Sequence record: AY587007.1 | Source of the DNA: Escherichia phage T5 | Reading direction: 5' to 3' (one strand) | Length of the DNA: 64,000 nt | Part shown: positions 28,131 to 40,768 of the stretch, in pieces | How positions within the stretch are numbered: the first letter of the stretch is position 1 | Layout: the number at the start of each line of letters is the position of its first letter | Notes under the pieces: model-generated | Database searches by the model: none | What the model was told of the DNA's origin: nothing | Seen by the model: the letters and a program-made list of their open reading frames with translations, nothing else | Made by a program: the position numbers and the translations under genes

Positions 28131-28207
28131 TGGTACTCCGGGAGGGATTTAAACCCCCGATCTCTCGGTTATCAGCCGAGTGCTTTAGATCGCTAAGCTA
28201 CCGAAGT
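28131..28207 (-). tRNA. tRNA-Ile (anticodon GAT)
   Basis: hand-folded cloverleaf, 7-bp acceptor, CCA encoded. Confidence 0.65.
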
Positions 28208-28222
28208 ATTAAAATATTTACA

Positions 28223-28513
28223 TCACACACTGTCTAAGTAAGAAGTATAATGGAACTTAGTTTCTCCAGCCTTATCTACTTCTACCTCAGTTCGAGGTAC
28301 TTGACGAACCACACCATAAATCATCTTATATCGGATGCCTCTAGCTGGTTCATGATCTTTTGGAAATACTTGTTTGACCGTTACTACTTTATACCCTTCA
28401 CGCGGTGTTAACACAACTACTTGATCACCCTCTTTGATTTTCCAAGAAGATGGAAATTCATAGGTGTATCTTTGGCCACCAGTTTGGAATACTACAGAAA
28501 GATAACGTTTCAT
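28223..28513 (-). CDS. hypothetical protein
   Basis: 96-aa ORF. Confidence 0.45.
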   Translation of the reverse strand: MKRYLSVVFQTGGQRYTYEFPSSWKIKEGDQVVVLTPREGYKVVTVKQVFPKDHEPARGIRYKMIYGVVRQVPRTEVEVDKAGETKFHYTSYLDSV

Positions 28514-28543
28514 TTGGTTTCCCTCTCATTAACTTATATAAAT

Positions 28544-28572
28544 ATTATAGCAATAAATAAGAGAGAAAGCAA
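28544..28572 (-). promoter_or_regulatory. T5-type early promoter, -35 TTGCTT, 17 bp, -10 TATAAT
   Basis: hexamers on minus strand. Confidence 0.6.
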
Positions 28573-28587
28573 ATGAATTTTTAAGTT

Positions 28588-28662
28588 TGGTGCTCCCACT
28601 AGGAATCGAACCCGGTTCAGATGCTTACAAGGCAACTGCATCACCAACAATGCTTTAGGAGC
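28588..28662 (-). tRNA. tRNA-Thr (anticodon TGT)
   Basis: cloverleaf with perfect D-stem; one mismatch in anticodon stem and one in T-stem. Confidence 0.5.
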
Positions 28663-28672
28663 GATGATCCCG

Positions 28673-28837
28673 TTATTTCAACGGGATTTCTTTTTCAAAT
28701 ACAGGGGATTTATCTGACATTACTGTCATTGCCAACTGCTGAAGAAACTCGAAAGTTAGCTTTAAACGTTCTTCGCCTAATTCAATCTCAACGTATTTCT
28801 TTTGTTTGTCAACCTTTAATTTTAGGTTATCAGCCAT
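28673..28837 (-). CDS. small hypothetical protein (54 aa)
   Basis: ORF below track cut-off, starts directly after the stop of 28830-29081. Confidence 0.25.
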   Translation of the reverse strand: MADNLKLKVDKQKKYVEIELGEERLKLTFEFLQQLAMTVMSDKSPVFEKEIPLK

Positions 28838-29081
28838 TAGAGAGTACAGTACTGGTAGTTGGCAATACTACAGATGAAGCAACAGTGTTTAAATGCTTTC
28901 TCCAGTCTAGGTTAAATTGTTTTCGAAACTCTTCATAAGGTTCTTCTGGATAAAAGCTAAAACCTCCTTTCTCATCATTCAGGATAACAGAGCCGTCAGT
29001 TTGTTCATATGCTCGATATGTTTCTCCAATAATGATAACTCGCTTATCAGTACTTTTATTACGAAACTCAAAAACGTGCAT
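28830..29081 (-). CDS. hypothetical protein
   Basis: 83-aa ORF. Confidence 0.4.
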   Translation of the reverse strand: MHVFEFRNKSTDKRVIIIGETYRAYEQTDGSVILNDEKGGFSFYPEEPYEEFRKQFNLDWRKHLNTVASSVVLPTTSTVLSNG

Positions 29082-29097
29082 AGTGTTTCCTTAAAGT

Positions 29098-29173
29098 TGG
29101 AGCGGCTAGAGGGAATCGAACCCTACTCAGCGAGGCTTGGAAGGCCTGCGACACAACCCGTGTGCTTAACCGC
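29098..29173 (-). tRNA. tRNA-Gly (anticodon TCC), unusual D-arm
   Basis: good acceptor and T-arm; anticodon loop CTTCCAA; D-arm folds only with a 5-nt loop. Confidence 0.4.
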
Positions 29174-29180
29174 GATTATT

Positions 29181-29258
29181 TGGCAGGGGATATTGGATTT
29201 GAACCAATGATCTCGACTTCAAAGGCCGAAGCTTTAGGCCAAGCTAAGCTAATCCCCA
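29181..29258 (-). tRNA. tRNA-Gln (anticodon TTG)
   Basis: full cloverleaf; discriminator G; position 1:72 is U-U. Confidence 0.65.
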
Positions 29259-29264
29259 ATTGTT

Positions 29265-29340
29265 TGGCAGAAGGTAGTGGGTTCGAACCACGATCAGTGG
29301 TTTCAGAGATCCCAGCCTTAACCGACTTGGCTAACCTTCT
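29265..29340 (-). tRNA. tRNA-like, possible degenerate tRNA-Gln (CTG)
   Basis: perfect acceptor stem and T-loop but two mismatches in anticodon stem; 5' 23 nt also encode the C-terminus of the HNH ORF 29318-29899. Confidence 0.3.
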
Positions 29341-29899
29341 TCTTAATACTTTTTGGATCTTTACCTGTTAAGGATTTATAACGTTTACGTAGTCCGTTAT
29401 CAGATAATCCTAACTCTTTTGATGCTTTAACCCATGAATAGTTTATTACCCAATATTCTATTTGCTCTGCTGTAATATCAGGGCTACTCTTAGGTTTACA
29501 ATCAAAACAAGTTTTAGATGAAGAATTTATTTGTTTATTACAGTAAGGGCATTTATTACCACCTATTGTATGTCCTCTTTCAACTGTAGTTTTTATTCTA
29601 TGATCTTGCTTGGTCATGACTACTAGATTATCTAAGGAAAAATTCAATTTATTCCTATCTTTGTGATCCACTTCTAGCTCAGATTCTAGTGAAGGTAAAT
29701 CTTTAAATACTCTAGCTAGTAATCTATGTAATACGATAGAGACATTCTTGCCCTGTTCATAGAATGTTACAAACGGATATCCTGCACTACCTAAATGATG
29801 TGTGAGTAATTTATTACTCTTGGTAGAGTAAACTTCTCCATATGGAGAGATTAAGTATTCGGGATATTCCGGAATTACTTTGAAATTTTCTAATTTCAT
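29318..29899 (-). CDS. HNH homing endonuclease (paralog family A)
   Basis: 193 aa; HRLLARVF ... EVDHKDRNKLNFSLDNL motif; C-terminal domain shared with 30943-31527 and 36304-36984. Confidence 0.6.
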   Translation of the reverse strand: MKLENFKVIPEYPEYLISPYGEVYSTKSNKLLTHHLGSAGYPFVTFYEQGKNVSIVLHRLLARVFKDLPSLESELEVDHKDRNKLNFSLDNLVVMTKQDHRIKTTVERGHTIGGNKCPYCNKQINSSSKTCFDCKPKSSPDITAEQIEYWVINYSWVKASKELGLSDNGLRKRYKSLTGKDPKSIKKKVSQVG

Positions 29900-29900
29900 C

Positions 29901-30101
29901 TTATTCTACAGGAACCGTGGCGATTGGCTCAGGTTCTTCAAGGCGCTTACCTTCATGATCTACTCGAATGACTCCGCATCCTTCGCAAACCACAACTGCA
30001 CCATAACCTTCTTTGACTTCGGCTTCTGTAATCAGACCAGATAAGTCACCAGTATCTCTGCCCCACATATCAATGGAGCATTGTTTGCAGAAATCAGCCA
30101 T
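29901..30101 (-). CDS. small zinc-ribbon-like protein
   Basis: 66 aa with CKQC ... CEGC. Confidence 0.4.
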   Translation of the reverse strand: MADFCKQCSIDMWGRDTGDLSGLITEAEVKEGYGAVVVCEGCGVIRVDHEGKRLEEPEPIATVPVE

Positions 30102-30126
30102 ATTTTATTTCCTATTTAAGTTAATT

Positions 30127-30203
30127 TGGGGTGGCTAGTGGAATTCGAATCCACATAGGCCTGATTCACAATCAGGATCATTAACCAATTATGATATAGC
30201 CAC
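30127..30203 (-). tRNA. tRNA-His (anticodon GTG)
   Basis: clean cloverleaf, discriminator C, CCA encoded. Confidence 0.75.
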
Positions 30204-30432
30204 AATTGAAAACTCGCAGGGTTAGCGAAACCATCCTCAATTAGCATGTTCTAGAATACTAATCAAGTTATCTCCTATTGCACGCAGCTCAAGACGAGTA
30301 CGAATTTTCAATTGTGGCGGCTCTCAGAAACTCTTCTATTCTAGCCCCAGAAGCTTACCCCCGAACGCATGTCGGGAAAGTCTTTCCAAGCGCATCAAAT
30401 AGCACCGTTACACTTTGAGCCATTGATATATC

Positions 30433-30517
30433 AAGGAACAGAAGGAGTTGAACCTTCACGAGATAGACCATTTATCTCAACCGCTTTTAAGGTATATTTC
30501 TAGGAGTGGATGTTCCT
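30433..30517 (-). other. tRNA-like element without encoded CCA, core not foldable as a cloverleaf
   Basis: perfect 7-bp acceptor pairing and perfect T-arm (GAAGG TTCAACT CCTTC) but no canonical anticodon or D arm. Confidence 0.3.
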
Positions 30518-30568
30518 AGTAAACCTATTCGGCAGTCCCGTCTACCAATTCCGGCATATTCCAAGAAT

Positions 30569-30745
30569 TTTTTATAAACCAGCAGAAGCCTCATTTAAAG
30601 CATCAACAATAGCTTCACGCTGGGTCATTCCATACCCAGTGGAGTCTAGGTGAGGCAAATAGGCTGCCCATCCATTATCTGTTTCATGAAGGCATGCTTT
30701 AAATTTTTTACCGTCCTTCATTGTTACAGTAACTGTTTTGCTCAT
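30569..30745 (-). CDS. small protein (58 aa) with HicB/UPF0150-like pattern
   Basis: ORF below track cut-off with RBS AAGGA; sequence GWAAYLPHLDSTGYGMTQREAIVDALNEA resembles the HicB antitoxin-fold family. Confidence 0.3.
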
Positions 30746-30765
30746 AAGGATTCCTTATAGTTAAT

Positions 30766-30855
30766 TGGAGGAAGGTAATGGAGTCGAACCATCACCGTAT
30801 CACTACAGCGGGCTAGTTTTCAAGACTAGTTGCGTACCACTACGCCCTACCTTCC
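30766..30855 (-). tRNA. tRNA-Ser (anticodon TGA), type II
   Basis: 90 nt, long variable arm, anticodon loop CTTGAAA. Confidence 0.6.
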
Positions 30856-30862
30856 ATTTGTT

Positions 30863-30956
30863 TGGCGGAAAAGATGGGAGTTGAACCCATAAGGCAATAT
30901 TGCTATTACTCAACCGATTTCCAATCGGGTTTAGTCGCCAGTCTATTTGCTTTTCC
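30863..30956 (-). tRNA. type-II-like tRNA, possibly Ser (GGA); fold uncertain
   Basis: 94 nt; perfect acceptor and T-arm; candidate anticodon loop TTGGAAA; D-arm ambiguous; 5' 14 nt overlap the HNH ORF 30943-31527. Confidence 0.3.
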
Positions 30957-31527
30957 GTTGTTCTGTTAATACTTTTGGGCTTAATCCAGTTAGTTTAGTA
31001 TACCTCCTGCGCAAAGTGGACTCTGATACTTCTAACTCTTTAGCTGCCTTAACCCACCCCATTAATAAAACCTTTTCAGTTATGTCGTCTAAAGACAATT
31101 CTGGTTTTATCAACCTTCCTGTAGGTTTTGGCTTACAATTTGTACATGTTACAGATCTCTGAAGCATTAGACTCCCACATAGGGGGCAAGGTACTCTACT
31201 GTCAGACCACCCATTATCTTTATTAGTTTTCCTCTGATGTTCTATTTTTGATAGGACTTGAAGATTATCTTTAGATAGATTCAGTCTATCTCTATCCTTA
31301 TGATCTACCTCTAATTCAGGGTCAAATAGATTATATAAGTCCCCAAATACATGAGAAATAATTCGGTGTATAAGTACAGAGGTTTGTTTACCATTTATCT
31401 GTAATTTTACAGCAGGGTATCCATCAACTATATATCTTGATAAAACTTTATTAGTAAATGTAGAGAACACATCCCCCGCCTCATTTACTAAATACCCTGG
31501 TGCATCTTTTATTGGTACAAACTGCAT
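30943..31527 (-). CDS. HNH homing endonuclease (paralog family A)
   Basis: 194 aa; HRIISHVF ... EVDHKDRDRLNLSKDNL motif. Confidence 0.6.
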   Translation of the reverse strand: MQFVPIKDAPGYLVNEAGDVFSTFTNKVLSRYIVDGYPAVKLQINGKQTSVLIHRIISHVFGDLYNLFDPELEVDHKDRDRLNLSKDNLQVLSKIEHQRKTNKDNGWSDSRVPCPLCGSLMLQRSVTCTNCKPKPTGRLIKPELSLDDITEKVLLMGWVKAAKELEVSESTLRRRYTKLTGLSPKVLTEQRKSK

Positions 31528-31544
31528 ACATAAATCCTATGAGT

Positions 31545-31629
31545 TGGTGGGGCTAGGGAGACTCGAACTCCCACGCATTTAAGCTACGGAATCTAAGGCC
31601 GTATTGTCTACCAGTTCCAGCATAGCCCC
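31545..31629 (-). tRNA. tRNA-Leu (anticodon TAG), type II
   Basis: 85 nt, variable arm present, anticodon loop CTTAGAT. Confidence 0.55.
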
Positions 31630-31634
31630 GAATT

Positions 31635-31709
31635 TGGTGGACAAAGAGGGACTCGAACCCTCCCTACCAGATTGCAAGTCTGGTGTGCTCCCGCTGACAC
31701 TATTCGCCC
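31635..31709 (-). tRNA. tRNA-Ala (anticodon TGC)
   Basis: clean cloverleaf, two G-U pairs in acceptor stem. Confidence 0.65.
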
Positions 31710-31947
31710 AAATTATTTAGTTTACTAAGGCTATTAGCTCGGCGTAACTACAGCACCTTCGCTTCAAGCGGAAGGAACCGCGTCATCTCGCAAACCCAAT
31801 ACACTATTCAGTTGCCGCTGAATCTAGTGGACTAATCTAGAACTTCTCCCAAATCGTAGGGATCGTGCTTTTTGGCAGCCAGTCCTAGGTCGAGCTAATA
31901 CCTTAGTGAACTATGATGGGGATTTCTCCTCATCAATTTATATAAAT

Positions 31948-31976
31948 ATTATAACAAGAAATTAAGCATTAAGCAA
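31948..31976 (-). promoter_or_regulatory. T5-type early promoter, -35 TTGCTT, 17 bp, -10 TATAAT
   Basis: hexamers on minus strand; would transcribe the downstream tRNA block. Confidence 0.55.
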
Positions 31977-32001
31977 CTGCGTTTTTGAAATTTCTTGGAC
32001 T

Positions 32002-32075
32002 TGGTACTCGGTGATAGAATCGAACTATCACAACCGCCGTGTAAAGGCGGGGTTCTCCCATTATACTAACCGAGC
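32002..32075 (-). tRNA. tRNA-Val (anticodon TAC)
   Basis: cloverleaf with perfect anticodon stem CCGCC/GGCGG. Confidence 0.6.
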
Positions 32076-32082
32076 AAAAATT

Positions 32083-32160
32083 TGGTGGGTTGCACAGGAC
32101 TCGAACCTGTAACCTATGGTTTAAAAGACCAGTGCTCTAAACCAGTTGAGCTAGCAACCC
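32083..32160 (-). tRNA. tRNA-Lys (anticodon TTT)
   Basis: clean cloverleaf, one mismatch closing the anticodon stem. Confidence 0.65.
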
Positions 32161-32328
32161 TTAGTAACCATTATATACTTCTTTAATAGTATGGACTTTC
32201 AAATAAAGGTGATTAGTACTAAACTCCGCCATTACTTCTTTTTCATTTTTTCCATAATGTGCAAGTAAGGATTTTGATGTATTCTTACCTAAACGTTTGT
32301 CACTTACTACTAATCGAAATACTTTCAT
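32161..32328 (-). CDS. small hypothetical protein (55 aa)
   Basis: ORF below track cut-off with RBS AGAGGA, wedged between two tRNA genes. Confidence 0.3.
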   Translation of the reverse strand: MKVFRLVVSDKRLGKNTSKSLLAHYGKNEKEVMAEFSTNHLYLKVHTIKEVYNGY

Positions 32329-32348
32329 TTCGAAATCCTCTATTAAAA

Positions 32349-32426
32349 TGGAAGCGGGTGCAGGAATCGAACCTACCTCTTTCTAGCTTATGAGACTAGC
32401 GATCTCTACCAGAGATCTAACCCGCA
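32349..32426 (-). tRNA. tRNA with anticodon CAT (Met, or Ile if lysidine-modified)
   Basis: cloverleaf with palindromic D-stem GATC; position 1:72 is U-U. Confidence 0.55.
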
Positions 32427-32432
32427 ATTGTT

Positions 32433-32509
32433 TGGTCTCCAATGAAGGACTCGAACCTTCAACCCCACCGCCCCAAACGGTGTACTCTAGCCAATTGAGC
32501 TAATCGGAG
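32433..32509 (-). tRNA. tRNA-Pro (anticodon TGG)
   Basis: clean cloverleaf. Confidence 0.7.
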
Positions 32510-32704
32510 AAAATTATTTCTTCAGCCACAACATGCTTAATCCTAGCATTGTAAAGCCTGTACTTAATCCTATTACCTTTTCTATCATAGAAAAGTTATC
32601 TATGTTAAATCCTACTATTACTATAGGGATAACCCAAGTACACATGAATACTGATGCAATTTTATACTTCACTTAGCTTTCCTTCTCTTCACTTTATAAG
32701 ATAT

Positions 32705-32733
32705 ATTATACAGAGAATTAAGCATAATAGCAA
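32705..32733 (-). promoter_or_regulatory. T5-type early promoter, -35 TTGCTA, 17 bp, -10 TATAAT
   Basis: hexamers on minus strand. Confidence 0.55.
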
Positions 32734-32863
32734 CTACATTTTTCATAAATTTACTTATTGTGTAGGCCACCTGGAGGCTACCAACCCCACGGCTGACAAA
32801 GAAGTTTGCGAGACTTCTCTTAAAAGCCAGAATAGACCCGCCGATCTATCGGAACCTACATAA

Positions 32864-33125
32864 TAAGTAAACTTTATAGTGTCATCCTAGACAGGATTCG
32901 AACCTGCTATCACTTGTGCGGACTTACGAGAACCATTCTTTCACTCGAATCGAACGAGCTTCTGCCCTCGCCAAGTTGGTTTCCCCATCAACCACGCTAG
33001 AATGTTAGATTGTTTTCAGTGCAAGAGTCCGAGTCTTGGACACGACCGCTTCGCAAGTACATAGGCAGCTTATCATGAGTCAGCACTTCCGAATTGCTAG
33101 CTCCGTGTTCTGCACTGAAATTTTA
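32864..33125 (-). other. non-coding stretch with two tRNA T-arm-like motifs but no foldable tRNA
   Basis: RNA-sense GCAGG TTCGAAT CCTGT and GCTCG TTCGATT CGAGT present; no matching acceptor or anticodon arms found. Confidence 0.3.
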
Positions 33126-33498: not shown

Positions 33499-33575
33499 TG
33501 GCGCGACCGATGGGATTTGAACCCACATTCTCTCCCGTGACAGGGGAGTACCATTACCAAGCCAGCCCCGGTCGC
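33499..33575 (-). tRNA. tRNA-Asp (anticodon GTC)
   Basis: cloverleaf with anticodon stem CTCCC/GGGAG. Confidence 0.65.
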
Positions 33576-33872: not shown

Positions 33873-33950
33873 TGGCGGTTCCTGCTGGATTCGAACCAGC
33901 AACCCTCAACTTAACAAGATGCCGCTCTAACCAATTAGAGCTAAGGAACC
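33873..33950 (-). tRNA. tRNA-Asn (anticodon GTT)
   Basis: perfect acceptor, D- and T-arms; anticodon stem has two non-canonical pairs. Confidence 0.5.
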
Positions 33951-35016: not shown

Positions 35017-35091
35017 TGGTGCACCCTGTTCGAATTGAACGAACCTCTCAAGCTCTTCAGGCAAGCGCTAATCCATCTCAGCTAAAGGTGC
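35017..35091 (-). tRNA. tRNA-Phe (anticodon GAA)
   Basis: good acceptor, D- and T-arms; anticodon loop CTGAAGA; two U-U pairs in anticodon stem. Confidence 0.45.
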
Positions 35092-35177: not shown

Positions 35178-35254
35178 TGGCGTCCTGTGTGGGGATCGAA
35201 CCCGCAAACCCTACCTTGAAAGGGTAGTGACTTTACCAGTTTGTCTAACAGGAC
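35178..35254 (-). tRNA. tRNA-Glu (anticodon TTC)
   Basis: perfect acceptor and anticodon stems. Confidence 0.65.
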
Positions 35255-35260: not shown

Positions 35261-35348
35261 TGGTAGGGGAGGATGGAGTCGAACCACCCGAGTCGCAATG
35301 ACAACTAATTTACAGTCAGCTCTGCTACCACTTACAGAATACTCCCCC
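35261..35348 (-). tRNA. tRNA-Tyr (anticodon GTA), type II
   Basis: 88 nt with variable stem-loop; anticodon loop CTGTAAA. Confidence 0.6.
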
Positions 35349-35472: not shown

Positions 35473-35501
35473 ATTATACCAAGTTTTAAGGCACTGAGCA
35501 A
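35473..35501 (-). promoter_or_regulatory. T5-type early promoter, -35 TTGCTC, 17 bp, -10 TATAAT
   Basis: hexamers on minus strand; -35 sits inside an 11-bp-stem hairpin (35492-35533). Confidence 0.5.
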
Positions 35502-35537
35502 GTCAAATTTTGAAGAACTTGCTCAGTGCTGTATTAG

Positions 35538-35813
35538 TTAGTCGAACTTAGGAGTGACAGATAAGGAGAACGGAAGTTCAAAAACTTCTTCACCCTCATT
35601 ACTAACAGTAACTACACGACCTTTAAGTTCAGACATTGAAATATCAATATCAGCTTTTGCATCTGGAGCCATGCCAGCTTCAACACATTTAGCTTTAACT
35701 TCCGGCAAGAGTTCTACATCGTAGAAATAAAGCCATTCAATCTCACCTTCCCAGCCTTCCCAGGATTTACAGATTGCACTTTCAATACCAGTTGCTACAA
35801 CACTATTTTGCAT
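35538..35813 (-). CDS. hypothetical acidic protein
   Basis: 91-aa ORF. Confidence 0.45.
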   Translation of the reverse strand: MQNSVVATGIESAICKSWEGWEGEIEWLYFYDVELLPEVKAKCVEAGMAPDAKADIDISMSELKGRVVTVSNEGEEVFELPFSLSVTPKFD

Positions 35814-35843
35814 TCGTTAACTCCTTCATCAATTTATACAACT

Positions 35844-35873
35844 ATTATATCAGAAATTTAAAGCAAAAGGCAA
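35844..35873 (-). promoter_or_regulatory. T5-type early promoter, -35 TTGCCT, 18 bp, -10 TATAAT
   Basis: hexamers on minus strand. Confidence 0.45.
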
Positions 35874-35903
35874 GTACATTTTTAAAAATTCTATTCGGAG
35901 GAG

Positions 35904-36110
35904 CTAAACTCCAGATTCTTCTGCCAAGTCTAGGCTAATAAGAGTTATAGCCATAATTGCTGCACCGTGTTCTTTTTCTCCGGTGTTTTTAGCAGAGTCT
36001 ATAATATCCTTAATCTGTTCGTAATAACTTTTTACTTCTTGTTCAATGCCTGCCTCGGCTATCATGCCTTTAGCCATGAATCGTTGCATGGTAATTTCAG
36101 GATTAGCCAT
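35904..36110 (-). CDS. hypothetical protein
   Basis: 68-aa ORF; start overlaps upstream stop as ATGGCTAA. Confidence 0.45.
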   Translation of the reverse strand: MANPEITMQRFMAKGMIAEAGIEQEVKSYYEQIKDIIDSAKNTGEKEHGAAIMAITLISLDLAEESGV

Positions 36111-36270
36111 GTTGTTTCTCCAGTTTCATTTTTAATAGTTTACAGATGAAATCAACGTCTTCATCCGTGCCTAAGTCTCTATCCTCAAGGGTCGCCTTGA
36201 AGTTTTTCGTCAATTCCATGAGGATGACTTCCCTAGAACGACGTGTTGGGGGCGGAGGAGGTCTATACAT
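36103..36270 (-). CDS. small proline-rich protein (55 aa)
   Basis: ORF below track cut-off with RBS AAGGA; stop overlaps downstream start. Confidence 0.3.
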   Translation of the reverse strand: MYRPPPPPTRRSREVILMELTKNFKATLEDRDLGTDEDVDFICKLLKMKLEKQHG

Positions 36271-36303
36271 CTTAATTCCTTAATTTGGTAGGAACTATAT
36301 CAT

Positions 36304-36984
36304 CTATGTTTTCTTAATACTTTTAGGATCTTTCCCCGTCAGGGACTTATACCTTTTCCTTAATCCAGTATCAGACAATCCTAGTTCTTTAGAGGCACGA
36401 ATCCAGGAATATTTAGATACCCAGTACTCTATTTGCTCCACAGTAATATCTGGATTTATAGTTATCCCTTTAGGAGTACATGATTTACAGTGTGTTGCTC
36501 TTGAGCTAATTTCGCAGTGACAAATAGCACACGTATTTACAGTCCTTTCTGTATACCTGCCAATATTTTTGCCTGCATGAGTAGGCGTTAGTGCATGGCA
36601 ATTTGGACATAGGAGGGCTAAGTTATCCCATTCATTATTATAGTGGTTTCCATCCTTGTGTTCGAGTTCTAAAGGAATTGGTTTGTCTAACCAACTTTCT
36701 AAGCCGCAACTCTCACACTTATGTGGTTTTAGCCCCTCGTTAAGAATTTTATTCTTTAGTTTATAGGAAGAAATAGGGCTGCCGTTATATAAATATTCTG
36801 TTGCAGACTTATATTTATTATCATACTGCCTATTCGTAGGAATAACTACTATTCCTAGTTTTCCTAAATATGCTTCCAAAGTGTTCGAGGAGCAGGATAG
36901 CATTCTTGCTATCTCTGCCTTAGATTTTCCCTGAGCTATCCACTGAGCTATTTCTTCCTTTCTATCTAGTATATCAGTTCTCAT
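36304..36984 (-). CDS. HNH homing endonuclease with N-terminal HTH-like region
   Basis: 226 aa; LELEHKDGNHYNNEWDNLALLCPNCH motif; C-terminus shared with paralogs. Confidence 0.6.
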   Translation of the reverse strand: MRTDILDRKEEIAQWIAQGKSKAEIARMLSCSSNTLEAYLGKLGIVVIPTNRQYDNKYKSATEYLYNGSPISSYKLKNKILNEGLKPHKCESCGLESWLDKPIPLELEHKDGNHYNNEWDNLALLCPNCHALTPTHAGKNIGRYTERTVNTCAICHCEISSRATHCKSCTPKGITINPDITVEQIEYWVSKYSWIRASKELGLSDTGLRKRYKSLTGKDPKSIKKT

Positions 36985-36997
36985 AATTTATGACTTT

Positions 36998-37075
36998 CTA
37001 CTTAAGTTGGTGGCTCCCCGAGGATTCGAACCTACGTACCTTCCAGTTATGAGCTGGGTGCTCATACCATATGAG
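36998..37075 (-). tRNA. tRNA with anticodon CAT (Met/fMet/Ile2 not resolved)
   Basis: good acceptor, D- and anticodon arms; T-stem only 3 bp. Confidence 0.5.
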
Positions 37076-37081
37076 CTTGAG

Positions 37082-37170
37082 AACCAGAATTTGGCGGAAG
37101 AAGTGGGAATCGAACCCACAAGGCTATATTTCAAACCGACAGATTAGCAATCTGCTGCAATACCGTTATG
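37082..37170 (-). tRNA. tRNA-Ser (anticodon GCT), type II
   Basis: 89 nt; anticodon loop TTGCTAA; long variable arm; perfect T-arm. Confidence 0.6.
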
Positions 37171-37184
37171 CTATTCTTCCGAAT

Positions 37185-37213
37185 TTATAAATATATTATA
37201 TTAGAAATTTAGC
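37185..37213 (-). promoter_or_regulatory. T5-type early promoter, -35 TTGCTA, 17 bp, -10 TATAAT
   Basis: hexamers on minus strand, positioned to transcribe the Ser/Met tRNAs. Confidence 0.55.
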
Positions 37214-37719
37214 TTCATAGCAAGAAAATTTTTCAAGTTTTCGGTAGACATCTCATCCACATCTACAGGGGAAACAAACCCATTTAACTGTCTAGCAAAC
37301 TTTTCGCCAGCAGGATCATTATCCCCAACAGCTACCAATTTAAAAGGTAGTAATTTCAATTGCTTTAATAGCGCTTTTCCTGGAGAAGAACCCAACATTG
37401 CCAGGGCTGGATAACCAGCGTTATGTAACGCAACTGCCTTAAATACAGATTCAGCAATCAATACTACTTTTTCATCTCCATTGAGAGTTTCTAGTCCCCA
37501 TACACACTGTGTAGTAGAATAAGTAAAATATCTAGCTTCAAGGGGGCACTTACCATGACCTTTTGGAGCAGAAGGATTATAAGTCTGATAGCCTCTCAAC
37601 ATCCCAGAGAAGTCATACAAGGGGACTGTTAGCCATCCTTCCGGGCTTAACCAGCAATGATATTTATCTGTATCAAACCCTCTAGATAAGAGATGTTCTG
37701 TTAGTTCATCAACAGTCAT
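37201..37719 (-). CDS. Toprim-domain protein
   Basis: 172 aa from ATG 37719 (RBS GAGAGAGGA); conserved Glu in VVLIAESVF and DxD in AVGDNDPAG as in Toprim folds. Confidence 0.4.
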   Translation of the reverse strand: MTVDELTEHLLSRGFDTDKYHCWLSPEGWLTVPLYDFSGMLRGYQTYNPSAPKGHGKCPLEARYFTYSTTQCVWGLETLNGDEKVVLIAESVFKAVALHNAGYPALAMLGSSPGKALLKQLKLLPFKLVAVGDNDPAGEKFARQLNGFVSPVDVDEMSTENLKNFLAMKLNF

Positions 37720-37749
37720 ATTAGATTCCTCTCTCAAATTTATAAATAT

Positions 37750-37778
37750 ATTATACAGAGAATTTAGCATTCAAGCAA
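37750..37778 (-). promoter_or_regulatory. T5-type early promoter, -35 TTGCTT, 17 bp, -10 TATAAT
   Basis: hexamers on minus strand. Confidence 0.55.
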
Positions 37779-37894
37779 TTGAATTTTTTAACTTTTTAGA
37801 GGAAAATCACAGGATGCTTACAGGTAGCAGGTAAGTGGTCAGGACCGAAATTTGTGACCCCACTAAAAATCTGGGGGCAATTTTTAAAGACCCC

Positions 37895-37923
37895 TTGACA
37901 TTTTCTCCTGGGTAGTGTAAAGT
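37895..37923 (+). promoter_or_regulatory. plus-strand sigma70-like promoter, -35 TTGACA, 17 bp, -10 TAAAGT
   Basis: consensus -35; -10 keeps the T, A and final T positions; lies upstream of the plus-strand island. Confidence 0.4.
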
Positions 37924-37985
37924 ATATGTTATGGATGAGTGATCAAAGAGACACACATTTTCTATATACTAGGAGGTGTCAAAAA

Positions 37986-38393
37986 ATGACAGAAGAAGTA
38001 GCTAATAGTCCTGAGACCGTCGCTAGCGTTGCAGCAGAACTGCACCGTCACGAGGAATCAGATAAGAAAAAGTGGGAGAAGGTCAGAGCCTACGAAGAAG
38101 AACATTGTGAACACGATGATAAAGATGATGAACATTGTCATAAATATGGAAAACATAAAATGCAAGAACCAGTAAACGTATTTACTAACGGCTTCCCTGG
38201 CATGGGTGCATTCCCGGCTAACGCAGGTGCTTTCGGTGGTGAAGGTATGGGCCTATTCGGAGCTATCCTAATCGGTGCTCTATTAACAGGCGGATTTGGT
38301 GGTTTTGGTAGTTTTGTCGCGGTGCTGGCGTTGCCGCTGAAGGAACTGCTGTGGACGCGATCCTTTCTAACCAAGATACTGCAAGTATTCTAG
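37986..38393 (+). CDS. His/acidic N-terminus, Gly-rich hydrophobic C-terminus protein
   Basis: start at ATG 37986 with RBS AGGAGGT; segments HCEHDDKDDEHCH and GFPGMGAFPANAGAFGGEGMGLFGAILIGALLTGGFGGFG. Confidence 0.5.
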   Translation: MTEEVANSPETVASVAAELHRHEESDKKKWEKVRAYEEEHCEHDDKDDEHCHKYGKHKMQEPVNVFTNGFPGMGAFPANAGAFGGEGMGLFGAILIGALLTGGFGGFGSFVAVLALPLKELLWTRSFLTKILQVF

Positions 38394-38950
38394 CTGCAAT
38401 CAACACTACTCGTACAGAAGCTAACCAGGACACTGGGGCTGTTCTAAGCGCAGTAAACGGTGTGGGAGCTGCTCAAGCTGCTAGCACTCAGCAAGTTCTG
38501 ACTACTATCTACGGTACAGGTGCTAATCTGTCAAACCAGATCTGTGCTGAAACTCGTAACGTTATTCAGGGTCAGTTCGATCTTTCTCGTCAGATGGATC
38601 AATCTTTCGCTGCTAACCAGATCGCACGTGCTCAAGATAAGTTTGACTCTGCTCAGATTGCTTTCCAGCAGTCTATTCAGACTAACAACCAGTTTGCCGC
38701 TGTTCAGGCTCAGATGTGTGCTAACCAGAATGCTATAGAACGTCAGCTTGCTGAATGTTGCTGTGAGCTTCAGACTGCGATCGCCGGTGTAACTACTGCG
38801 CGTATCCAGGACGAACTGAATGAATGCCGTCTGCGCGAAGCAATCGCTGCAGGTAGCGGTGCAAATGGTCAGGTAATCAACCAAATCGCTGTAAGTCTTG
38901 GTGCTATCACTCAGACTCTGGCTGGTCTGCAGGCTAAACTGCCGGCTTAA
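38351..38950 (+). CDS. Ala/Gln-rich low-complexity protein
   Basis: GTG start with RBS AAGGA; overlaps the previous gene by 43 nt in the -1 frame; contains CCC triplet AECCCE. Confidence 0.4.
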   Translation: MDAILSNQDTASILAAINTTRTEANQDTGAVLSAVNGVGAAQAASTQQVLTTIYGTGANLSNQICAETRNVIQGQFDLSRQMDQSFAANQIARAQDKFDSAQIAFQQSIQTNNQFAAVQAQMCANQNAIERQLAECCCELQTAIAGVTTARIQDELNECRLREAIAAGSGANGQVINQIAVSLGAITQTLAGLQAKLPA

Positions 38951-38971
38951 AATTAAGGGGAGGAGTCCATT

Positions 38972-39388
38972 ATGAGTAAATATGGTTTTGTAAACAACGG
39001 ATTTAATCAACAAATGGGCTCCCAGCAGCCCGTTCCGGGTCTGGATAATCCTTACCTACAACAGTTGCAACAGCGTTTAGCAGAAGCGCAACAGATGCAG
39101 CAACAACTCCAGCAAAACCCTGGAAGTGTGAGTCCTATGCAAATGATGCAGCAAATGAGCGGGCAGTCGCAAATGCCTCAACAAATGCAGCAACAGGTGC
39201 CTCAGCAGCAAGTTCAGCAACAAACCCAACAACCGCAGGTTTCTGCGGAAGGACAGGCAGTACTAGCCCTTTTCGAAGATTTCGCAAAGACAGAGGATGG
39301 GAAACAGCTTGTATCACTTATGGGTAAGTTTAATAGCTTCTGCCAAAGCCAAGTTGCAAAAGCTCAAAATGGTGATAATAGCTCCTAA
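38972..39388 (+). CDS. Gln-rich low-complexity protein
   Basis: 138 aa with strong RBS AAGGGGAGGAG; long Q-rich runs. Confidence 0.5.
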   Translation: MSKYGFVNNGFNQQMGSQQPVPGLDNPYLQQLQQRLAEAQQMQQQLQQNPGSVSPMQMMQQMSGQSQMPQQMQQQVPQQQVQQQTQQPQVSAEGQAVLALFEDFAKTEDGKQLVSLMGKFNSFCQSQVAKAQNGDNSS

Positions 39389-39397
39389 GGAGGAATT

Positions 39398-39592
39398 ATG
39401 TGTTGCAGAAAATCTGTTTCGTGCTGCCCAATGCCTGTAGCACGTTGTTGCTCTCCAGCAATGTTTACACAAATACCGGCGTTCAATCCCTTTGCCTTTA
39501 AGCCTACTCTTATCCTGCCCCCTAGAGTAGATTTTCAGTCAAGATTGGCCTCCCGTATGGGTGGTTGCTGTAATAAGAGTATATGGTTCTAA
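39398..39592 (+). CDS. Cys-rich small protein
   Basis: 64 aa with RBS AAGGAGG; CC doublets (MCC, SCC, RCC, GCC). Confidence 0.5.
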   Translation: MCCRKSVSCCPMPVARCCSPAMFTQIPAFNPFAFKPTLILPPRVDFQSRLASRMGGCCNKSIWF

Positions 39593-39609
39593 AGAACCAA
39601 TAATAAAAA

Positions 39610-39641
39610 CCCCTAGTCGAAAGACTTAGGGGTTTTCTTTT
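39610..39641 (+). terminator. rho-independent terminator
   Basis: hairpin CCCCTAGTC-GAAA-GACTTAGGGG followed by TTTTCTTTT. Confidence 0.6.
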
Positions 39642-39688
39642 ATCTTAAATACAGAAAAGCCCTGCGCTCTCCAGGGAACACAGGGCTT
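39641..39688 (-). terminator. probable rho-independent terminator for the SPFH gene
   Basis: 8-bp stem AAGCCCTG/CAGGGCTT, then U-rich run on the minus-strand RNA. Confidence 0.4.
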
Positions 39689-39711
39689 ACTTCGAATATT
39701 ACATGTGGGTA

Positions 39712-40659
39712 TTACTTGTTACGCATATCCATAATCATCTGGCCATCGTAACCAGTGCCAACTACTGTTTGCGGTACACCACCTTGATATTTCTGAGCAC
39801 GAATCATTTCAACTTCTAGTTGTTTCCAGCGAATCATCTCAGGAGTAATAGTACGTTGCAGAGCGGCGTTAGCTTCGGCTTCTTTCTTAGCTGCGTACAG
39901 TTTAGCATCTGCATCACGTTCGTTTGCAATAGCCTGGTTGTTACGAGCTTCACGATCTGCTTCTGCTTGTTTAACCTTCTGCTGTGCTTCTTGTTCAACA
40001 CGAGCCAATTCAGCTTTCGCAGCATTAACTTGTTCTTCACGAACTTTGGTATTCTGTACCTGTTCCATGATTACAGGCGGCAAAGTAATATCCTGAAGGA
40101 ACACTTGCTTAACTGTGTAACCATAAGGGCGTGCGTACTCTTCAACTTCCTGCTGAATTGCAGTTTGCAATTGTGCTTGAATTTTAGCATCAAACAAATC
40201 TTGTGCTTTAGGTACAGACTTACCAAACTCACGAATAGTAGATAGTAATTTCTCAGTTACATACTTATCTAGAGCCTGATCCTGAGTACCTGCGTTAATA
40301 CGGTTAATCGGTGCCTTAGAACCATCAAACTGCAACATAACAGTCAGGTCAACAGTGGATTTAAACTTATCCTGGCTGGGAACCTGAAGTTTATCTAATT
40401 TTACAGCAATATCTTTTGTACTAAAAGTATCGAAAGATGCAAATGGGTTTACAAGATGGAAACCAGGTAATACTGGGTTAGGATCTACTTTACCCAGAAA
40501 TGTTTGGGTTTTAACCGTACCATCAGAAACAATAGTATATGAATTAAAAGCTAGGATTAAACCTGCTAAACCAACCACAGCACCAATACCCCAACGTTTA
40601 ATAGTGCGAACTACTTTTTGCTCAGAAGTCAGTTCTTTCATATTTTTAGTATTAAACAT
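39712..40659 (-). CDS. SPFH / band-7 (prohibitin-stomatin-like) membrane protein
   Basis: 315 aa; N-terminal transmembrane helix, SPFH-like core, long Ala/Glu/Gln-rich coiled-coil tail; RBS AAGGAA. Confidence 0.6.
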   Translation of the reverse strand: MFNTKNMKELTSEQKVVRTIKRWGIGAVVGLAGLILAFNSYTIVSDGTVKTQTFLGKVDPNPVLPGFHLVNPFASFDTFSTKDIAVKLDKLQVPSQDKFKSTVDLTVMLQFDGSKAPINRINAGTQDQALDKYVTEKLLSTIREFGKSVPKAQDLFDAKIQAQLQTAIQQEVEEYARPYGYTVKQVFLQDITLPPVIMEQVQNTKVREEQVNAAKAELARVEQEAQQKVKQAEADREARNNQAIANERDADAKLYAAKKEAEANAALQRTITPEMIRWKQLEVEMIRAQKYQGGVPQTVVGTGYDGQMIMDMRNK

Positions 40660-40693
40660 ATATTTCCTTTGTTTTAGTTACAGTTAATAAAGT

Positions 40694-40768
40694 TGGCCGA
40701 GGTGACAGGATTCGAACCTGCATAAAGGAATTTAGAAGACTCCTGCCTCTCCCTTAGACTACACCCCG
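40694..40768 (-). tRNA. tRNA-Arg (anticodon TCT)
   Basis: clean cloverleaf; anticodon stem GGAGT/ATTCC; CCA encoded. Confidence 0.65.

What the first reader, a model, noticed from the sequence alone, without database searches (positions are those of the whole stretch)
28131..40768. About 24 tRNA genes, several with non-canonical features
I folded 24 tRNA or tRNA-like genes by hand, all on the minus strand. Three (Gln, Trp and one CAT tRNA) have a U-U at position 1:72. Trp and Gly fold only with a 3-4 bp D-stem and 5-nt D-loop. Phe and Asn have two non-Watson-Crick pairs in the anticodon stem. Two separate CAT-anticodon tRNAs are present; one may be initiator or lysidine-Ile.
Basis: partly seen in the sequence, partly recalled or inferred. 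Interest (0 to 1): 0.45.

Follow-up and report, generated by a model that had tools for sequence, protein, structure and literature searches.

The report
Phage T5 tRNA gene cluster

Summary
The window is Escherichia phage T5 (99.9% identical to AY543070). The interval 28131-40768 holds exactly the 24 tRNA genes annotated there, all on the minus strand and identical in sequence to the record. A 25th, elongator Met(CAU) at 27959-28034, lies just outside. ARAGORN finds 21 at default settings and two more (Gly, Ile2-CAU) at a relaxed threshold. It never finds Trp, which scores 20.8 bits in Rfam against a threshold of 29. These features are inherited. The Gln lineage keeps U1·U72 in Pseudomonas and Vibrio phages while seven other pairs covary. 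The Phe U·U/U·U is invariant while its T-stem covaries. The initiator is identical in four of the five T5-like phages compared. The three U·U tRNAs correspond to host tRNAs whose 1:72 pair is already weak or absent. The Asn mismatch sits at the published PARIS/AriB cleavage site. Trp may be decaying. Verdict: observation confirmed, already known, low interest.

The parts
   Evidence: ARAGORN; Rfam 51.5 bits; AY543070 'tRNAM'; C11:G24 and A1-U72
28131..28207 (-). tRNA-Ile1(GAU)
   Evidence: ARAGORN; Rfam 65.5 bits; annotated
28588..28662 (-). tRNA-Thr(UGU); A8, U28xU42, G39
   Evidence: Counterpart of a host AriB/P2-OLD target (PMC12409363, PMC12445682)
29098..29173 (-). tRNA-Gly(UCC); A8, compact D hairpin 9-13/19-23 with 5-nt loop, C27xC43, U49xC65
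   Evidence: ARAGORN finds it only at -ps90. Rfam tRNA model fails; Sec model 26.7 bits. MFE fold. U23->C in two relatives makes G9-C23. Annotation note: CUA derivative is an effective amber suppressor
29181..29258 (-). tRNA-Gln(UUG) with U1·U72 (U1 = 29258, U72 = 29185), G73
   Evidence: U·U kept in 4 of 5 lineage members while 7 pairs covary
29265..29340 (-). tRNA-Gln(CUG), annotated pseudogene; 4 mismatches across D, anticodon and T stems
   Evidence: (flag p)
30127..30203 (-). tRNA-His(GUG); U rather than G at -1 (30204)
30766..30855 (-). tRNA-Ser(UGA)
30863..30956 (-). tRNA-Ser(GGA)
   Evidence: Rfam only via the Sec model, 39 bits
31545..31629 (-). tRNA-Leu(UAG)
31635..31709 (-). tRNA-Ala(UGC), G3·U70
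32002..32075 (-). tRNA-Val(UAC)
32083..32160 (-). tRNA-Lys(UUU); A39 C40 C41, C27xU43. This is the published PARIS-neutralising tRNA
   Evidence: PMC11464382 and PMC12409363
32349..32426 (-). CAU tRNA annotated as initiator (fMet): U1·U72 (32426/32353), A11:U24, U73, no GGG:CCC in the anticodon stem
   Evidence: 78/78 identical in four relatives. Host initiator comparison
32433..32509 (-). tRNA-Pro(UGG)
33499..33575 (-). tRNA-Asp(GUC)
33873..33950 (-). tRNA-Asn(GUU); G27·A43 and U30·U40; G39 U40 U41
   Evidence: 77 phage records at >=99% identity. Helps neutralise PARIS (PMC12409363)
34467..34542 (-). tRNA-Cys(GCA)
35017..35091 (-). tRNA-Phe(GAA); tandem U28·U42 and U29·U41
   Evidence: Mismatches invariant while the T-stem covaries. 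Recognition by E. coli PheRS studied (Kholod 1997, cited in PMC9976931)
35098..35168 (-). 71-nt tRNA-Trp(CCA): U1·U72 (35168/35102), G3·U70 (U70 = 35104), C8, 3-bp D-stem with 5-nt loop, C31xA39
   Evidence: Annotated. Missed by ARAGORN. Rfam 20.8 bits. MFE cloverleaf. 116 phage records at >=95% identity. Variants
35178..35254 (-). tRNA-Glu(UUC)
35261..35348 (-). tRNA-Tyr(GUA); published counter to retron Eco7
   Evidence: PMC11555353
37008..37085 (-). CAU tRNA annotated tRNA-Ile2 (lysidine type); A8, weak T-stem (two mismatches)
   Evidence: ARAGORN -ps90. Rfam 38.2 bits. Annotation (offset -78 here). Compensatory anticodon-stem changes in relatives
37092..37180 (-). tRNA-Ser(GCU)
40694..40768 (-). 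tRNA-Arg(UCU)
41352..41425 (-). tRNA-like element inside annotated stable 'RNAX'; no CCA, abnormal anticodon loop. Outside the finding but part of the same cluster
   Evidence: ARAGORN 'Ser(act)'. Rfam tRNA 38.3 bits. Conserved with T-stem covariation

Best explanation
The interval is the early-region tRNA gene cluster of bacteriophage T5. It holds 24 annotated tRNA genes, with a 25th just outside. All are transcribed from the minus strand, all encode their own CCA, and they are interspersed with small ORFs, HNH homing-endonuclease genes and stable tRNA-like RNAs.

The non-canonical features are genuine, inherited properties of these genes. They are neither folding artefacts nor, for most genes, decay.

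Shown here or in print: the tRNAs give the phage its own decoding set, and at least Lys, Thr, Asn and Tyr act as substitutes for host tRNAs cut by defence nucleases (PARIS/AriB, retron Eco7). Nuclease resistance itself has been shown directly only for T5 tRNALys.

Inferred:
(i) U1·U72 occurs in the three isoacceptor families (Gln, Trp, initiator Met) whose host versions already have a weak or absent 1:72 pair. It therefore keeps the acceptor end open, as GlnRS and the formyltransferase require. In the CAU tRNA at 32349-32426, together with A11:U24 and a host-like G2-C71/C3-G70/G4-C69, it marks the initiator.
(ii) The anticodon-stem mismatches (Asn U30·U40 at the AriB 40|41 cut site; loss of U39 in Lys, Thr and Asn; Thr U28xU42; the Phe tandem U·U) weaken or re-sequence the helix that stem-cutting nucleases recognise.
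(iii) The compact D-arms of Gly and Trp are tolerated variants. Gly is functional. Trp is of uncertain function.
For: Identity. 99.9% to AY543070/NC_005859. All 25 tRNA genes are base-for-base identical to the record; the 7 substitutions and 3 indels in 17.8 kb lie elsewhere. The annotation lists the same genes.

Reality of the features. ARAGORN pictures, a fixed-template cloverleaf table, MFE folds and Rfam alignments all agree.

Inheritance and selection.
- Gln(UUG) lineage in T5, FFH1, Pseudomonas phage phiPsa267, Erwinia phage Hena1 and Vibrio phage K480: 96% of cells paired, 7 pairs with double compensatory changes, 0/500 shuffles reaching the score. The only unpaired position is 1:72, which is U·U in 4 of 5 and A-U in Hena1.
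- Initiator: 78/78 identical in four T5-like phages; the fifth has one change that turns U50·G64 into U-A.
- Phe: the CUUGC/GCUUG stem is invariant in Markadamsvirinae copies at 89-100% identity while the T-stem covaries.
- Ile2: compensatory anticodon-stem changes.
- Gly: U23->C in two relatives converts G9·U23 to G9-C23, which supports the shifted D hairpin.

Host comparison (E. coli K-12). tRNAGln has U1-A72, tRNATrp A1-U72, and the initiator C1xA72 with A11:U24. All 11 host anticodon stems examined are fully paired (one contains a G·U). Host Asn reads U39 C40|C41 and host Thr U39 C40|A41. T5 Asn reads G39 U40 U41, T5 Thr G39 C40 A41 and T5 Lys A39 C40 C41.

Literature.
- AriB cuts between positions 40 and 41, and U39->A abolishes cleavage. 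T5 tRNALys, tRNAThr and tRNAAsn together neutralise PARIS (PMC12409363; PMC11464382).
- Phage tRNAThr resists P2-OLD by shortening the anticodon stem and altering the CNG motif (PMC12445682).
- T5 tRNATyr counters retron Eco7 (PMC11555353).
- T5 tRNAPhe recognition by E. coli PheRS has been studied biochemically (PMC9976931, citing Kholod 1997).
- The record's own notes say the CUA derivatives of Gly1 and Gln1 are effective amber suppressors.
Against: No experiment ties the specific mismatches (Asn U30·U40 and G27·A43, the Phe U·U pairs) to nuclease resistance. For Lys the tested determinants were base substitutions, not mismatches. I found no tRNAPhe-directed nuclease in the papers I read.

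The annotated initiator lacks two hallmark initiator features: the three consecutive G:C pairs in the anticodon stem, and A73.

Trp has no functional evidence.
- Its CUA derivative is not a suppressor, according to the record's note.
- The BF23 copy has anticodon ACA.
- T5 alone carries G3·U70.
- Other T5-like phages have replaced it with an unrelated 77-nt allele.

The whole region is dispensable in the laboratory: deletion mutants T5-123 and T5Mos are viable (PMC11464382, PMC12409363).
Confidence: 0.88

Rival explanations
1. Mutational decay. The tRNA region is dispensable, so the odd pairs are slightly deleterious or neutral mutations accumulating in genes under relaxed selection, and some of the genes are pseudogenes.
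For: Gln(CUG) at 29265-29340 is annotated as a pseudogene and has 4 stem mismatches.

For Trp: T5 alone has C70->U, BF23 has an ACA anticodon, ARAGORN and Rfam reject it, and its CUA derivative is not a suppressor.

Deletion mutants lacking 11-17 tRNA genes are viable. Relatives swap whole alleles.
Against: The odd features are invariant while other stems covary: Gln 1:72 and the Phe anticodon stem. The initiator is identical in four of five relatives, with one pair-preserving change in the fifth. The Asn allele is >=99% identical in 77 records, including a Pectobacterium phage.

The Gly1 and Gln1 bodies work as suppressors. Asn rescues infection under PARIS.

Even Trp is kept at >=95% identity in 116 records, and its few changes preserve or improve pairing: A22->G against U40, and U1->G against U72.
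Confidence: 0.1
2. Pure codon-supply set. The tRNAs exist only to match the AT-rich codon usage of T5, and the structural oddities are neutral passengers with no role in evading host defences.
For: 11 of the 25 anticodons start with U and so read A-ending codons. The tRNA region is 39% G+C. Codon compensation is the classical hypothesis (PMC10264068, PMC10644984).
Against: Published experiments show that T5 tRNALys/Thr/Asn and tRNATyr overcome PARIS and retron Eco7, and that T5 tRNALys resists AriB because of anticodon-stem differences. The T5 Asn, Thr and Lys differences sit at the mapped AriB site. Codon supply also does not explain why mismatches stay fixed while neighbouring stems covary.
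Confidence: 0.25
3. U1·U72 is an escape from toxins that act on the acceptor end, such as CdiA-CT(EC869), which cuts between positions 71 and 72 of host tRNAGln, Asn, Trp and fMet.
For: The toxin's host targets (Gln, Asn, Trp, initiator Met) overlap strikingly with the three T5 tRNAs that carry U·U (one search compared).
Against: [quoted passage not shown] Resistance came from G1-C72 or from a change at position 73 (PMC9071432). T5 Gln1 and Trp keep G73. The overlap is explained more simply: these are the families with a naturally weak 1:72 pair.
Confidence: 0.05
4. Hand-alignment artefact. The tRNAs are canonical and the reader's registers are off.
For: For Gly, more than one D-arm register can be drawn (one search compared).
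Against: ARAGORN, a fixed template, ViennaRNA and Infernal all reproduce the mismatches. Gly and Trp fail the standard tRNA thresholds precisely because of them.
Confidence: 0.01

Closest known systems
Bacteriophage T5 tRNA gene region as published (GenBank AY543070 / NC_005859; also AY734508)
   Same: It is the same locus. The gene order, strand, anticodons and sequences of all 25 tRNA genes are identical.
   Different: The window has 7 substitutions and 3 small indels relative to AY543070 across 17.8 kb, none in a tRNA gene.
BF23 and other Demerecviridae tRNA clusters (NC_042564, Epseptimavirus, Tequintavirus)
   Same: Same syntenic cluster. The initiator, Phe, Gly(UCC), Ile2, His and the RNAX tRNA-like element are 86-100% identical.
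   Different: The clusters are mosaic. The five T5-like phages I compared carry unrelated alleles of Trp (77 nt, with U2·U71 and U3·U70), of Gln(UUG) (U1-A72) and of Asn (long variable arm). They also carry extra tRNAs such as Leu-UAA, Lys-CUU, Gly-GCC and Arg-ACG.
Nuclease-resistant phage tRNAs (T5 tRNALys against PARIS/AriB; phage tRNAThr against P2-OLD; T5 tRNATyr against retron Eco7)
   Same: The very genes used in those studies are in this interval. The differences from the host lie in the anticodon stem at or next to the mapped cut sites, and include loss of base pairs.
   Different: I found no nuclease reported for tRNAPhe, Gly or Trp.
E. coli initiator tRNAfMet (metZ/W/V)
   Same: Mismatch at 1:72, A11:U24, G2-C71/C3-G70/G4-C69, and an identical anticodon loop CUCAUAA.
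   Different: U·U instead of CxA at 1:72, and U73 instead of A73. The anticodon stem is CUAGU/GCUAG, with only one G:C pair instead of GGG:CCC.
D-arm-reduced tRNAs such as those of animal mitochondria (from general knowledge, not tested here)
   Same: The T5 Trp D-arm is cut to a 3-bp stem and 5-nt loop, giving a 68-nt body. Standard tRNA finders fail on it.
   Different: T5 Trp keeps a canonical T-arm (UUCGAAU loop) and a GG in the D-loop, so the elbow contact could still form. There is no evidence of common descent.

Membership tests
Bacterial tRNA (Rfam RF00005 / ARAGORN cloverleaf) | Scores at or above the curated threshold of a tRNA model | tested here: met
   20 of the 24 in-range genes reach the RF00005 gathering score. 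21 are called by ARAGORN at default settings. Ser(GGA) and Tyr are called by ARAGORN only.
Bacterial tRNA (Rfam RF00005 / ARAGORN cloverleaf) | The same threshold, applied to Gly(UCC) 29098-29173 and Trp 35098-35168 | tested here: not met
   Trp scores 20.8 bits against 29, with a D-stem deletion, and ARAGORN makes no call even at -ps70. For Gly, the best match is the tRNA-Sec model at 26.7 bits against 47, and ARAGORN calls it only at -ps90. Both still have a 7-bp acceptor stem, a 7-nt anticodon loop with U33, a UUCGAUU or UUCGAAU T-loop, the expected discriminator base and an encoded CCA.
Bacterial tRNA (Rfam RF00005 / ARAGORN cloverleaf) | Mature, aminoacylated product that works in translation | not testable with these tools
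   Only indirect evidence. The annotation notes on amber-suppressor derivatives are positive for Gly1, Gln1 and Ile2, and negative for Trp, Phe and Asn. Published rescue experiments exist for Lys, Thr, Asn and Tyr. T5 tRNAPhe recognition by PheRS has been studied.
Bacterial initiator tRNA (for 32349-32426) | No Watson-Crick pair at 1:72 | tested here: met
   U1·U72. The host initiator has C1xA72.
Bacterial initiator tRNA (for 32349-32426) | A11:U24 in the D-stem (elongators have Y11:R24) | tested here: met
   The D-stem GAUC/GAUC gives A11:U24. It is the only one of the three T5 CAU tRNAs with this pair. The host initiator is the only one of 11 host tRNAs examined with it.
Bacterial initiator tRNA (for 32349-32426) | Three consecutive G:C pairs (29-31 with 39-41) in the anticodon stem | tested here: not met
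   The stem is CUAGU/GCUAG: A29-U41, G30-C40, U31·G39. The host has GGG:CCC.
Bacterial initiator tRNA (for 32349-32426) | Formylation determinants G2-C71, C3-G70, G4-C69 and A73 | tested here: inconclusive
   The three base pairs are present, but the discriminator is U73, not A73. Formylation itself was reported in 1975 (Chen et al., seen only in a reference list; the paper could not be read).
tRNA-Ile2 (CAU, lysidine-modified) (for 37008-37085) | CAU anticodon on a body recognised by TilS and IleRS rather than MetRS | not testable with these tools
   The AY543070 and BF23 records annotate it as tRNAI2. A73 and C5-G68 are present, but position 4:69 is U-A rather than the C4-G69 that I recall for E. 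coli tRNAIle2. An isotype-specific classifier such as tRNAscan-SE 2 was not available.
Nuclease-resistant phage tRNA (anti-PARIS set) | Same anticodon as a host tRNA that AriB cleaves (Lys-UUU, Thr-UGU, Asn-GUU) | tested here: met
   All three anticodons are present. The targets are listed in PMC12409363.
Nuclease-resistant phage tRNA (anti-PARIS set) | Sequence at the cleavage site (U36-A-A-U39-C40|N41) altered, especially U39 | tested here: met
   T5 Lys has A39 C40 C41, Thr G39 C40 A41, and Asn G39 U40 U41. Host Thr has U39 C40 A41 and host Asn U39 C40 C41.
Nuclease-resistant phage tRNA (anti-PARIS set) | Demonstrated resistance to cleavage | not testable with these tools
   Published for T5 tRNALys. 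For Thr and Asn only rescue by over-expression is published (PMC12409363).

The most novel reading that the evidence does not exclude
Two things here may go beyond the record.

(1) The 71-nt T5-type tRNATrp is invisible to ARAGORN and Rfam and is left unannotated in most of the 116 phage genomes that carry it. It may be a working tRNA with a minimal D-arm whose reduced D-arm, U1·U72 and C31xA39 let it escape a host factor that disables tRNATrp. In T5 itself it may also have acquired the AlaRS determinant G3·U70.

(2) U1·U72 may be a positively selected signature of a tRNAGln lineage that moves between phages of Escherichia, Pseudomonas and Vibrio.

If so, the phage-host tRNA arms race would extend from the anticodon arm to the acceptor end and the D-arm.
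Probability: 0.15. Interest if true: 0.45.

Novelty: already known. Interest (0 to 1): 0.18.

Why it matters
This is the textbook example of a phage carrying a near-complete tRNA set. Since 2023-2025 it has also become the model for phage tRNAs that replace host tRNAs destroyed by defence nucleases such as PARIS, retron Eco7 and P2-OLD.

The scan result adds little.

The practical point is an annotation gap. The T5-type tRNATrp, and to a lesser extent Gly(UCC) and Ile2(CAU), are missed by standard tRNA finders. They are therefore absent from many T5-like phage annotations, which has led to statements that such phages lack a Trp tRNA.

Tried and rejected
1. Hand-fold artefact: rejected. ARAGORN, a fixed template, ViennaRNA and Infernal all reproduce the mismatches.

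2. Chance tRNA-like hits: rejected. There were 0 default ARAGORN hits in 20 dinucleotide shuffles.

3. A first attempt at covariation with five T5-like genomes (L002-L006) failed for Trp, Gln1 and Asn, because those phages carry unrelated alleles at the syntenic sites. I had to search each allele separately.

4. The Trp allele shows too little variation (95-100% identity) for a real covariation test.

5. U1·U72 as an escape from CdiA-CT(EC869): rejected, because a U1-U72 tRNAGln variant is cleaved like wild type.

6. I first thought the AY543070 Ile2 coordinates were off by one from ARAGORN. That was my own offset error: the offset is -78, not -79, between window positions 36308 and 38316.

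7. The 1975 PNAS paper on T5 Met and fMet tRNAs could not be read. Two searches and one paper look-up failed on term format.

8. ARAGORN's -br bracket output was not produced together with -seq, so I wrote a template parser instead.

9. Protein-level tools, structure prediction and the metagenome and genome scans were not used, because the locus is identified unambiguously.

Full report
WHAT THE SEQUENCE IS

A megablast of window 28000-41500 against phage genomes gives Escherichia phage T5 (AY543070, NC_005859) at 99.9% identity over 100% of the query. BF23 and many other T5-like Demerecviridae follow.

Aligning 17.8 kb of AY543070 to the window shows 7 substitutions and 3 small indels, none inside a tRNA gene. 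Window coordinates equal AY543070 coordinates minus 79, except between 36308 and 38316, where the offset is 78.

In this stretch the GenBank record annotates 25 tRNA genes, one of them (Gln-CUG) flagged as a pseudogene. It also annotates several 'stable RNAs', some called tRNA-like, four HNH homing-endonuclease genes (three of them within the tRNA block), small ORFs and a series of promoters.

CHECKING THE OBSERVATION

ARAGORN at default settings finds 23 tRNA genes in the 64-kb window, all on the minus strand between 27959 and 41425. Rfam at gathering thresholds finds 21 tRNA matches, 20 of them in the interval.

Twenty dinucleotide-preserving shuffles of the window give no default ARAGORN hits, and 0.55 hits per shuffle at the relaxed -ps90 setting.

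At -ps90 the real window gains exactly two calls. Both sit 7 nt from a neighbouring tRNA gene on the same strand, and both end in CCA: Gly(UCC) 29098-29173 and a CAU tRNA 37008-37085.

The annotated Trp(CCA) gene at 35098-35168 is never called by ARAGORN, even at -ps70. The Rfam tRNA model reaches only 20.8 bits against a gathering score of 29, with three positions of the 5' strand of the D-stem deleted and the remaining D-stem pairs non-standard.

A 25th gene, elongator Met(CAU) at 27959-28034, lies 97 nt beyond the interval's lower end.

Each structural claim was tested with ARAGORN drawings, a fixed cloverleaf template applied to all 25 genes, ViennaRNA minimum-free-energy folds and Infernal alignments.

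- U1·U72 is present in Gln(UUG), in the CAU tRNA at 32349-32426, and in Trp.
- Phe has tandem U28·U42 and U29·U41.
- Asn has G27·A43 and U30·U40.
- Trp folds with a 3-bp D-stem (G9-C19, C10-G18, A11-U17) and the 5-nt loop UAGGU. It also has C8, C31xA39 and, in T5 only, G3·U70.
- Gly has A8 and a D hairpin shifted by one position (pairs 9-13 with 19-23, loop CGGGU), plus C27xC43 and U49xC65. ARAGORN's relaxed fold draws a 3-bp stem with a 9-nt loop instead, so the word 'only' is a little strong for Gly.
- The best Rfam match for Gly is the selenocysteine-tRNA model, which has a long D-stem and small loop, at 26.7 bits against a threshold of 47.

It does not refute the observation.

ARE THE ODDITIES INHERITED OR NOISE?

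Five T5-like genomes fetched around the Tyr-Glu-Trp-Phe block (L002-L006) show that the cluster is mosaic.
- The initiator is 78/78 identical in four of them. The fifth has one change that converts U50·G64 to U-A.
- Phe is 97% identical with both U·U pairs kept.
- Gly(UCC) is 99-100% identical in the three of these genomes where BLAST detected a copy. The single change, U23->C, makes G9-C23, which supports the shifted D hairpin.
- Ile2 shows compensatory changes in its anticodon stem.
- Trp, Gln(UUG) and Asn have no detectable homologue in these five phages. They carry unrelated alleles at the same sites: a 77-nt Trp with U2·U71 and U3·U70, a Gln(UUG) with U1-A72, and an Asn with a long variable arm.

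Searching each T5 allele on its own gave the following.

Trp. The allele occurs in 116 phage records at 95-100% identity, mostly unannotated. Its few variants are compatible with the fold: A22->G opposite U40, and U1->G opposite U72. All four non-T5 copies I fetched have C70 where T5 has U70, and the identity bands (113 records at 95-99%) suggest that is the norm. The BF23 copy reads ACA in the anticodon.

Gln(UUG). The lineage extends to Pseudomonas phage phiPsa267, Erwinia phage Hena1 and Vibrio phage K480. On a five-sequence alignment, 96% of cells pair, seven pairs carry changes on both sides, and 0 of 500 shuffles reach the covariation score. The only unpaired position is 1:72, which is U·U in four sequences and A-U in Hena1. 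This is the strongest evidence that U1·U72 is maintained rather than accidental.

Phe. The CUUGC/GCUUG anticodon stem is invariant in Markadamsvirinae copies down to 89% identity while the T-stem covaries. More distant alleles (Providencia phage PSTCR5, Salmonella phage STWB21) have fully paired stems.

Asn. The allele is >=99% identical in 77 records, including Pectobacterium phage My1.

COMPARISON WITH THE HOST

Eleven E. coli K-12 tRNA genes were fetched and run through the same template.
- Host tRNAGln has U1-A72 with G73. Host tRNATrp has A1-U72 with G73. The host initiator has C1xA72.
- So the three T5 tRNAs with U·U are the counterparts of host species whose first pair is already weak or absent.
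- All 11 host anticodon stems are fully paired (one contains a G·U).
- The host initiator is the only host tRNA examined with A11:U24. The T5 CAU tRNA at 32349-32426 is the only one of the three T5 CAU tRNAs with it.
- That T5 tRNA also shares G2-C71, C3-G70, G4-C69 and the loop CUCAUAA with the host initiator. It has U73 instead of A73 and lacks the GGG:CCC run.

Its annotation as initiator is therefore well but not fully supported by sequence. Biochemical evidence exists (Chen et al. 1975, seen only as a citation; the paper was not readable).

HOW IT MOST LIKELY WORKS

Shown in the literature:
- The T5 tRNA region is dispensable in the laboratory, but T5 tRNALys is needed to infect PARIS-carrying cells and resists the AriB nuclease.
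- AriB cuts the anticodon stem between positions 40 and 41, and U39->A abolishes cleavage.
- T5 tRNALys, tRNAThr(UGU) and tRNAAsn(GUU) together neutralise PARIS (PMC11464382; PMC12409363).
- T5 tRNATyr counters retron Eco7 (PMC11555353).
- T5 tRNAPhe recognition by E. coli PheRS has been studied biochemically (PMC9976931, citing Kholod et al. 1997).

Shown here from sequence: all three T5 counterparts of AriB targets have lost U39 (Lys A39, Thr G39, Asn G39). The Asn U30·U40 mismatch lies at the scissile position, and Thr carries U28xU42.

Inferred: the non-Watson-Crick pairs in the Asn, Thr and Phe anticodon stems are part of the same escape strategy, re-sequencing and loosening the helix that stem-cutting nucleases read. 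This is plausible but untested for these particular mismatches, and I found no nuclease reported for tRNAPhe.

For U1·U72 the most economical reading is identity, not escape. From general knowledge, GlnRS must open the 1:72 pair and the formyltransferase needs it unpaired. The one acceptor-end toxin with the matching target set, CdiA-CT(EC869) (Gln, Asn, Trp, fMet), cuts a U1-U72 tRNAGln variant as well as wild type (PMC9071432).

Functional status by gene:
- Gly1 and Gln1: CUA-anticodon derivatives are effective amber suppressors according to the record's notes, so these unusual bodies work on the ribosome.
- Trp: uncertain. Its CUA derivative does not suppress, it is rejected by the tRNA models, BF23's copy has an altered anticodon, and T5's copy has acquired G3·U70. 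Against decay, it is retained nearly unchanged in 116 genomes.
- Gln(CUG) at 29265-29340: annotated pseudogene with four stem mismatches.

COMPARISON WITH WHAT IS KNOWN, AND NOVELTY

This is not a relative of the T5 tRNA cluster. It is that cluster, and every gene is in the 2004 GenBank record. The unusual structures were evidently known to the annotators, who give gene-by-gene notes on suppressor conversion. The anti-defence role of several of these tRNAs has been published since 2023.

What this analysis adds is modest:
- cross-phage evidence that U1·U72 in tRNAGln and the tandem U·U in tRNAPhe are conserved;
- the mapping of the Asn and Thr mismatches onto the AriB site;
- the observation that T5-type tRNATrp is missed by standard finders and hence unannotated in most genomes that carry it. 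For example, the BF23 genome paper, which used ARAGORN, states that BF23 lacks a Trp tRNA (PMC10644984).

VERDICT

Novelty: already known. Interest is about 0.18.

The most novel reading not excluded is that the minimal-D-arm tRNATrp and the U1·U72 acceptor ends are adaptations against host factors not yet described. I give that about 15%.

Noticed in passing
window 41352-41425 (-): A tRNA-like element lies inside the annotated stable 'RNAX'. ARAGORN calls it Ser(act) with an 8-bp acceptor stem, and Rfam's tRNA model gives 38.3 bits (above gathering) in the sensitive scan. It has no encoded CCA, unlike the 25 tRNA genes, and has A33 instead of U33. It is conserved in five T5-like phages with compensatory changes in the T-stem, and is annotated tRNA-OTHER or tRNA-SeC(tca) in two of them.
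   Followed up: partly
T5 therefore has the full Met, fMet and Ile2 trio.
   Followed up: yes
window 30204 (-), 5' of tRNA-His 30127-30203: The T5 tRNA-His gene has U, not G, at position -1 opposite C73, and the annotators include this U in a 78-nt gene. From general knowledge, E. coli templates G-1, the main HisRS identity element. The U is conserved in all five relatives checked.
   Followed up: partly
window 29259-29263, 32427-32431, 35169-35173 (-): All three U1·U72 tRNAs are preceded by the same leader, ACAAU. The same leader precedes the Gln homologues in Pseudomonas phage phiPsa267 and Vibrio phage K480. This may reflect a shared RNase P context or common descent.
   Followed up: no
window 35104 (U70 of tRNA-Trp); L007 6472-6542: T5 has U at position 70 of tRNA-Trp, giving G3·U70, the classical AlaRS identity pair. 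All four non-T5 copies I fetched have C70, and most of the other records differ from T5 at a single base. The BF23 copy has anticodon ACA instead of CCA.
   Followed up: partly
L002 10186-10262, L002 10931-11013, L004 11804-11886: The other T5-like phages compared carry different and also unusual alleles at the same sites: a 77-nt tRNA-Trp with U2·U71 and U3·U70 in the acceptor stem, and an 83-86-nt tRNA-Asn with a long variable arm.
   Followed up: no
window 29318-29899, 30943-31527, 36301-36984 (-), approximate, converted from AY543070: HNH homing-endonuclease genes (hegD, hegC, hegA) are interleaved with the tRNA genes, and two of them (hegD, hegC) overlap a tRNA gene end: hegD overlaps the pseudo Gln-CUG and hegC overlaps Ser-GGA. 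This fits the allele-by-allele mosaicism seen among relatives.
   Followed up: no
window 30205-30565, 31729-31900, 32759-33004, 33798-33870 (-), converted from AY543070: The record annotates further stable RNAs between the tRNA genes: RNAIII, RNAI, RNA1, RNA2H, RNAIV, RNA2 and RNA3, three of them called tRNA-like. Relaxed ARAGORN gives weak tRNA-like calls inside RNA1 and RNA2. Relatives have real tRNA genes (for example Gly-GCC and Lys-CUU) near the corresponding positions, so some may be tRNA remnants.
   Followed up: no
window 27210, 27411-27413, 30507, 34348, 36308, 37809, 38316, 38430, 39886, 42647: The window differs from AY543070 at these positions (7 substitutions, 3 indels). It is therefore a different T5 sequence record or isolate. 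One difference (30507) falls in the stable RNA1.
   Followed up: partly
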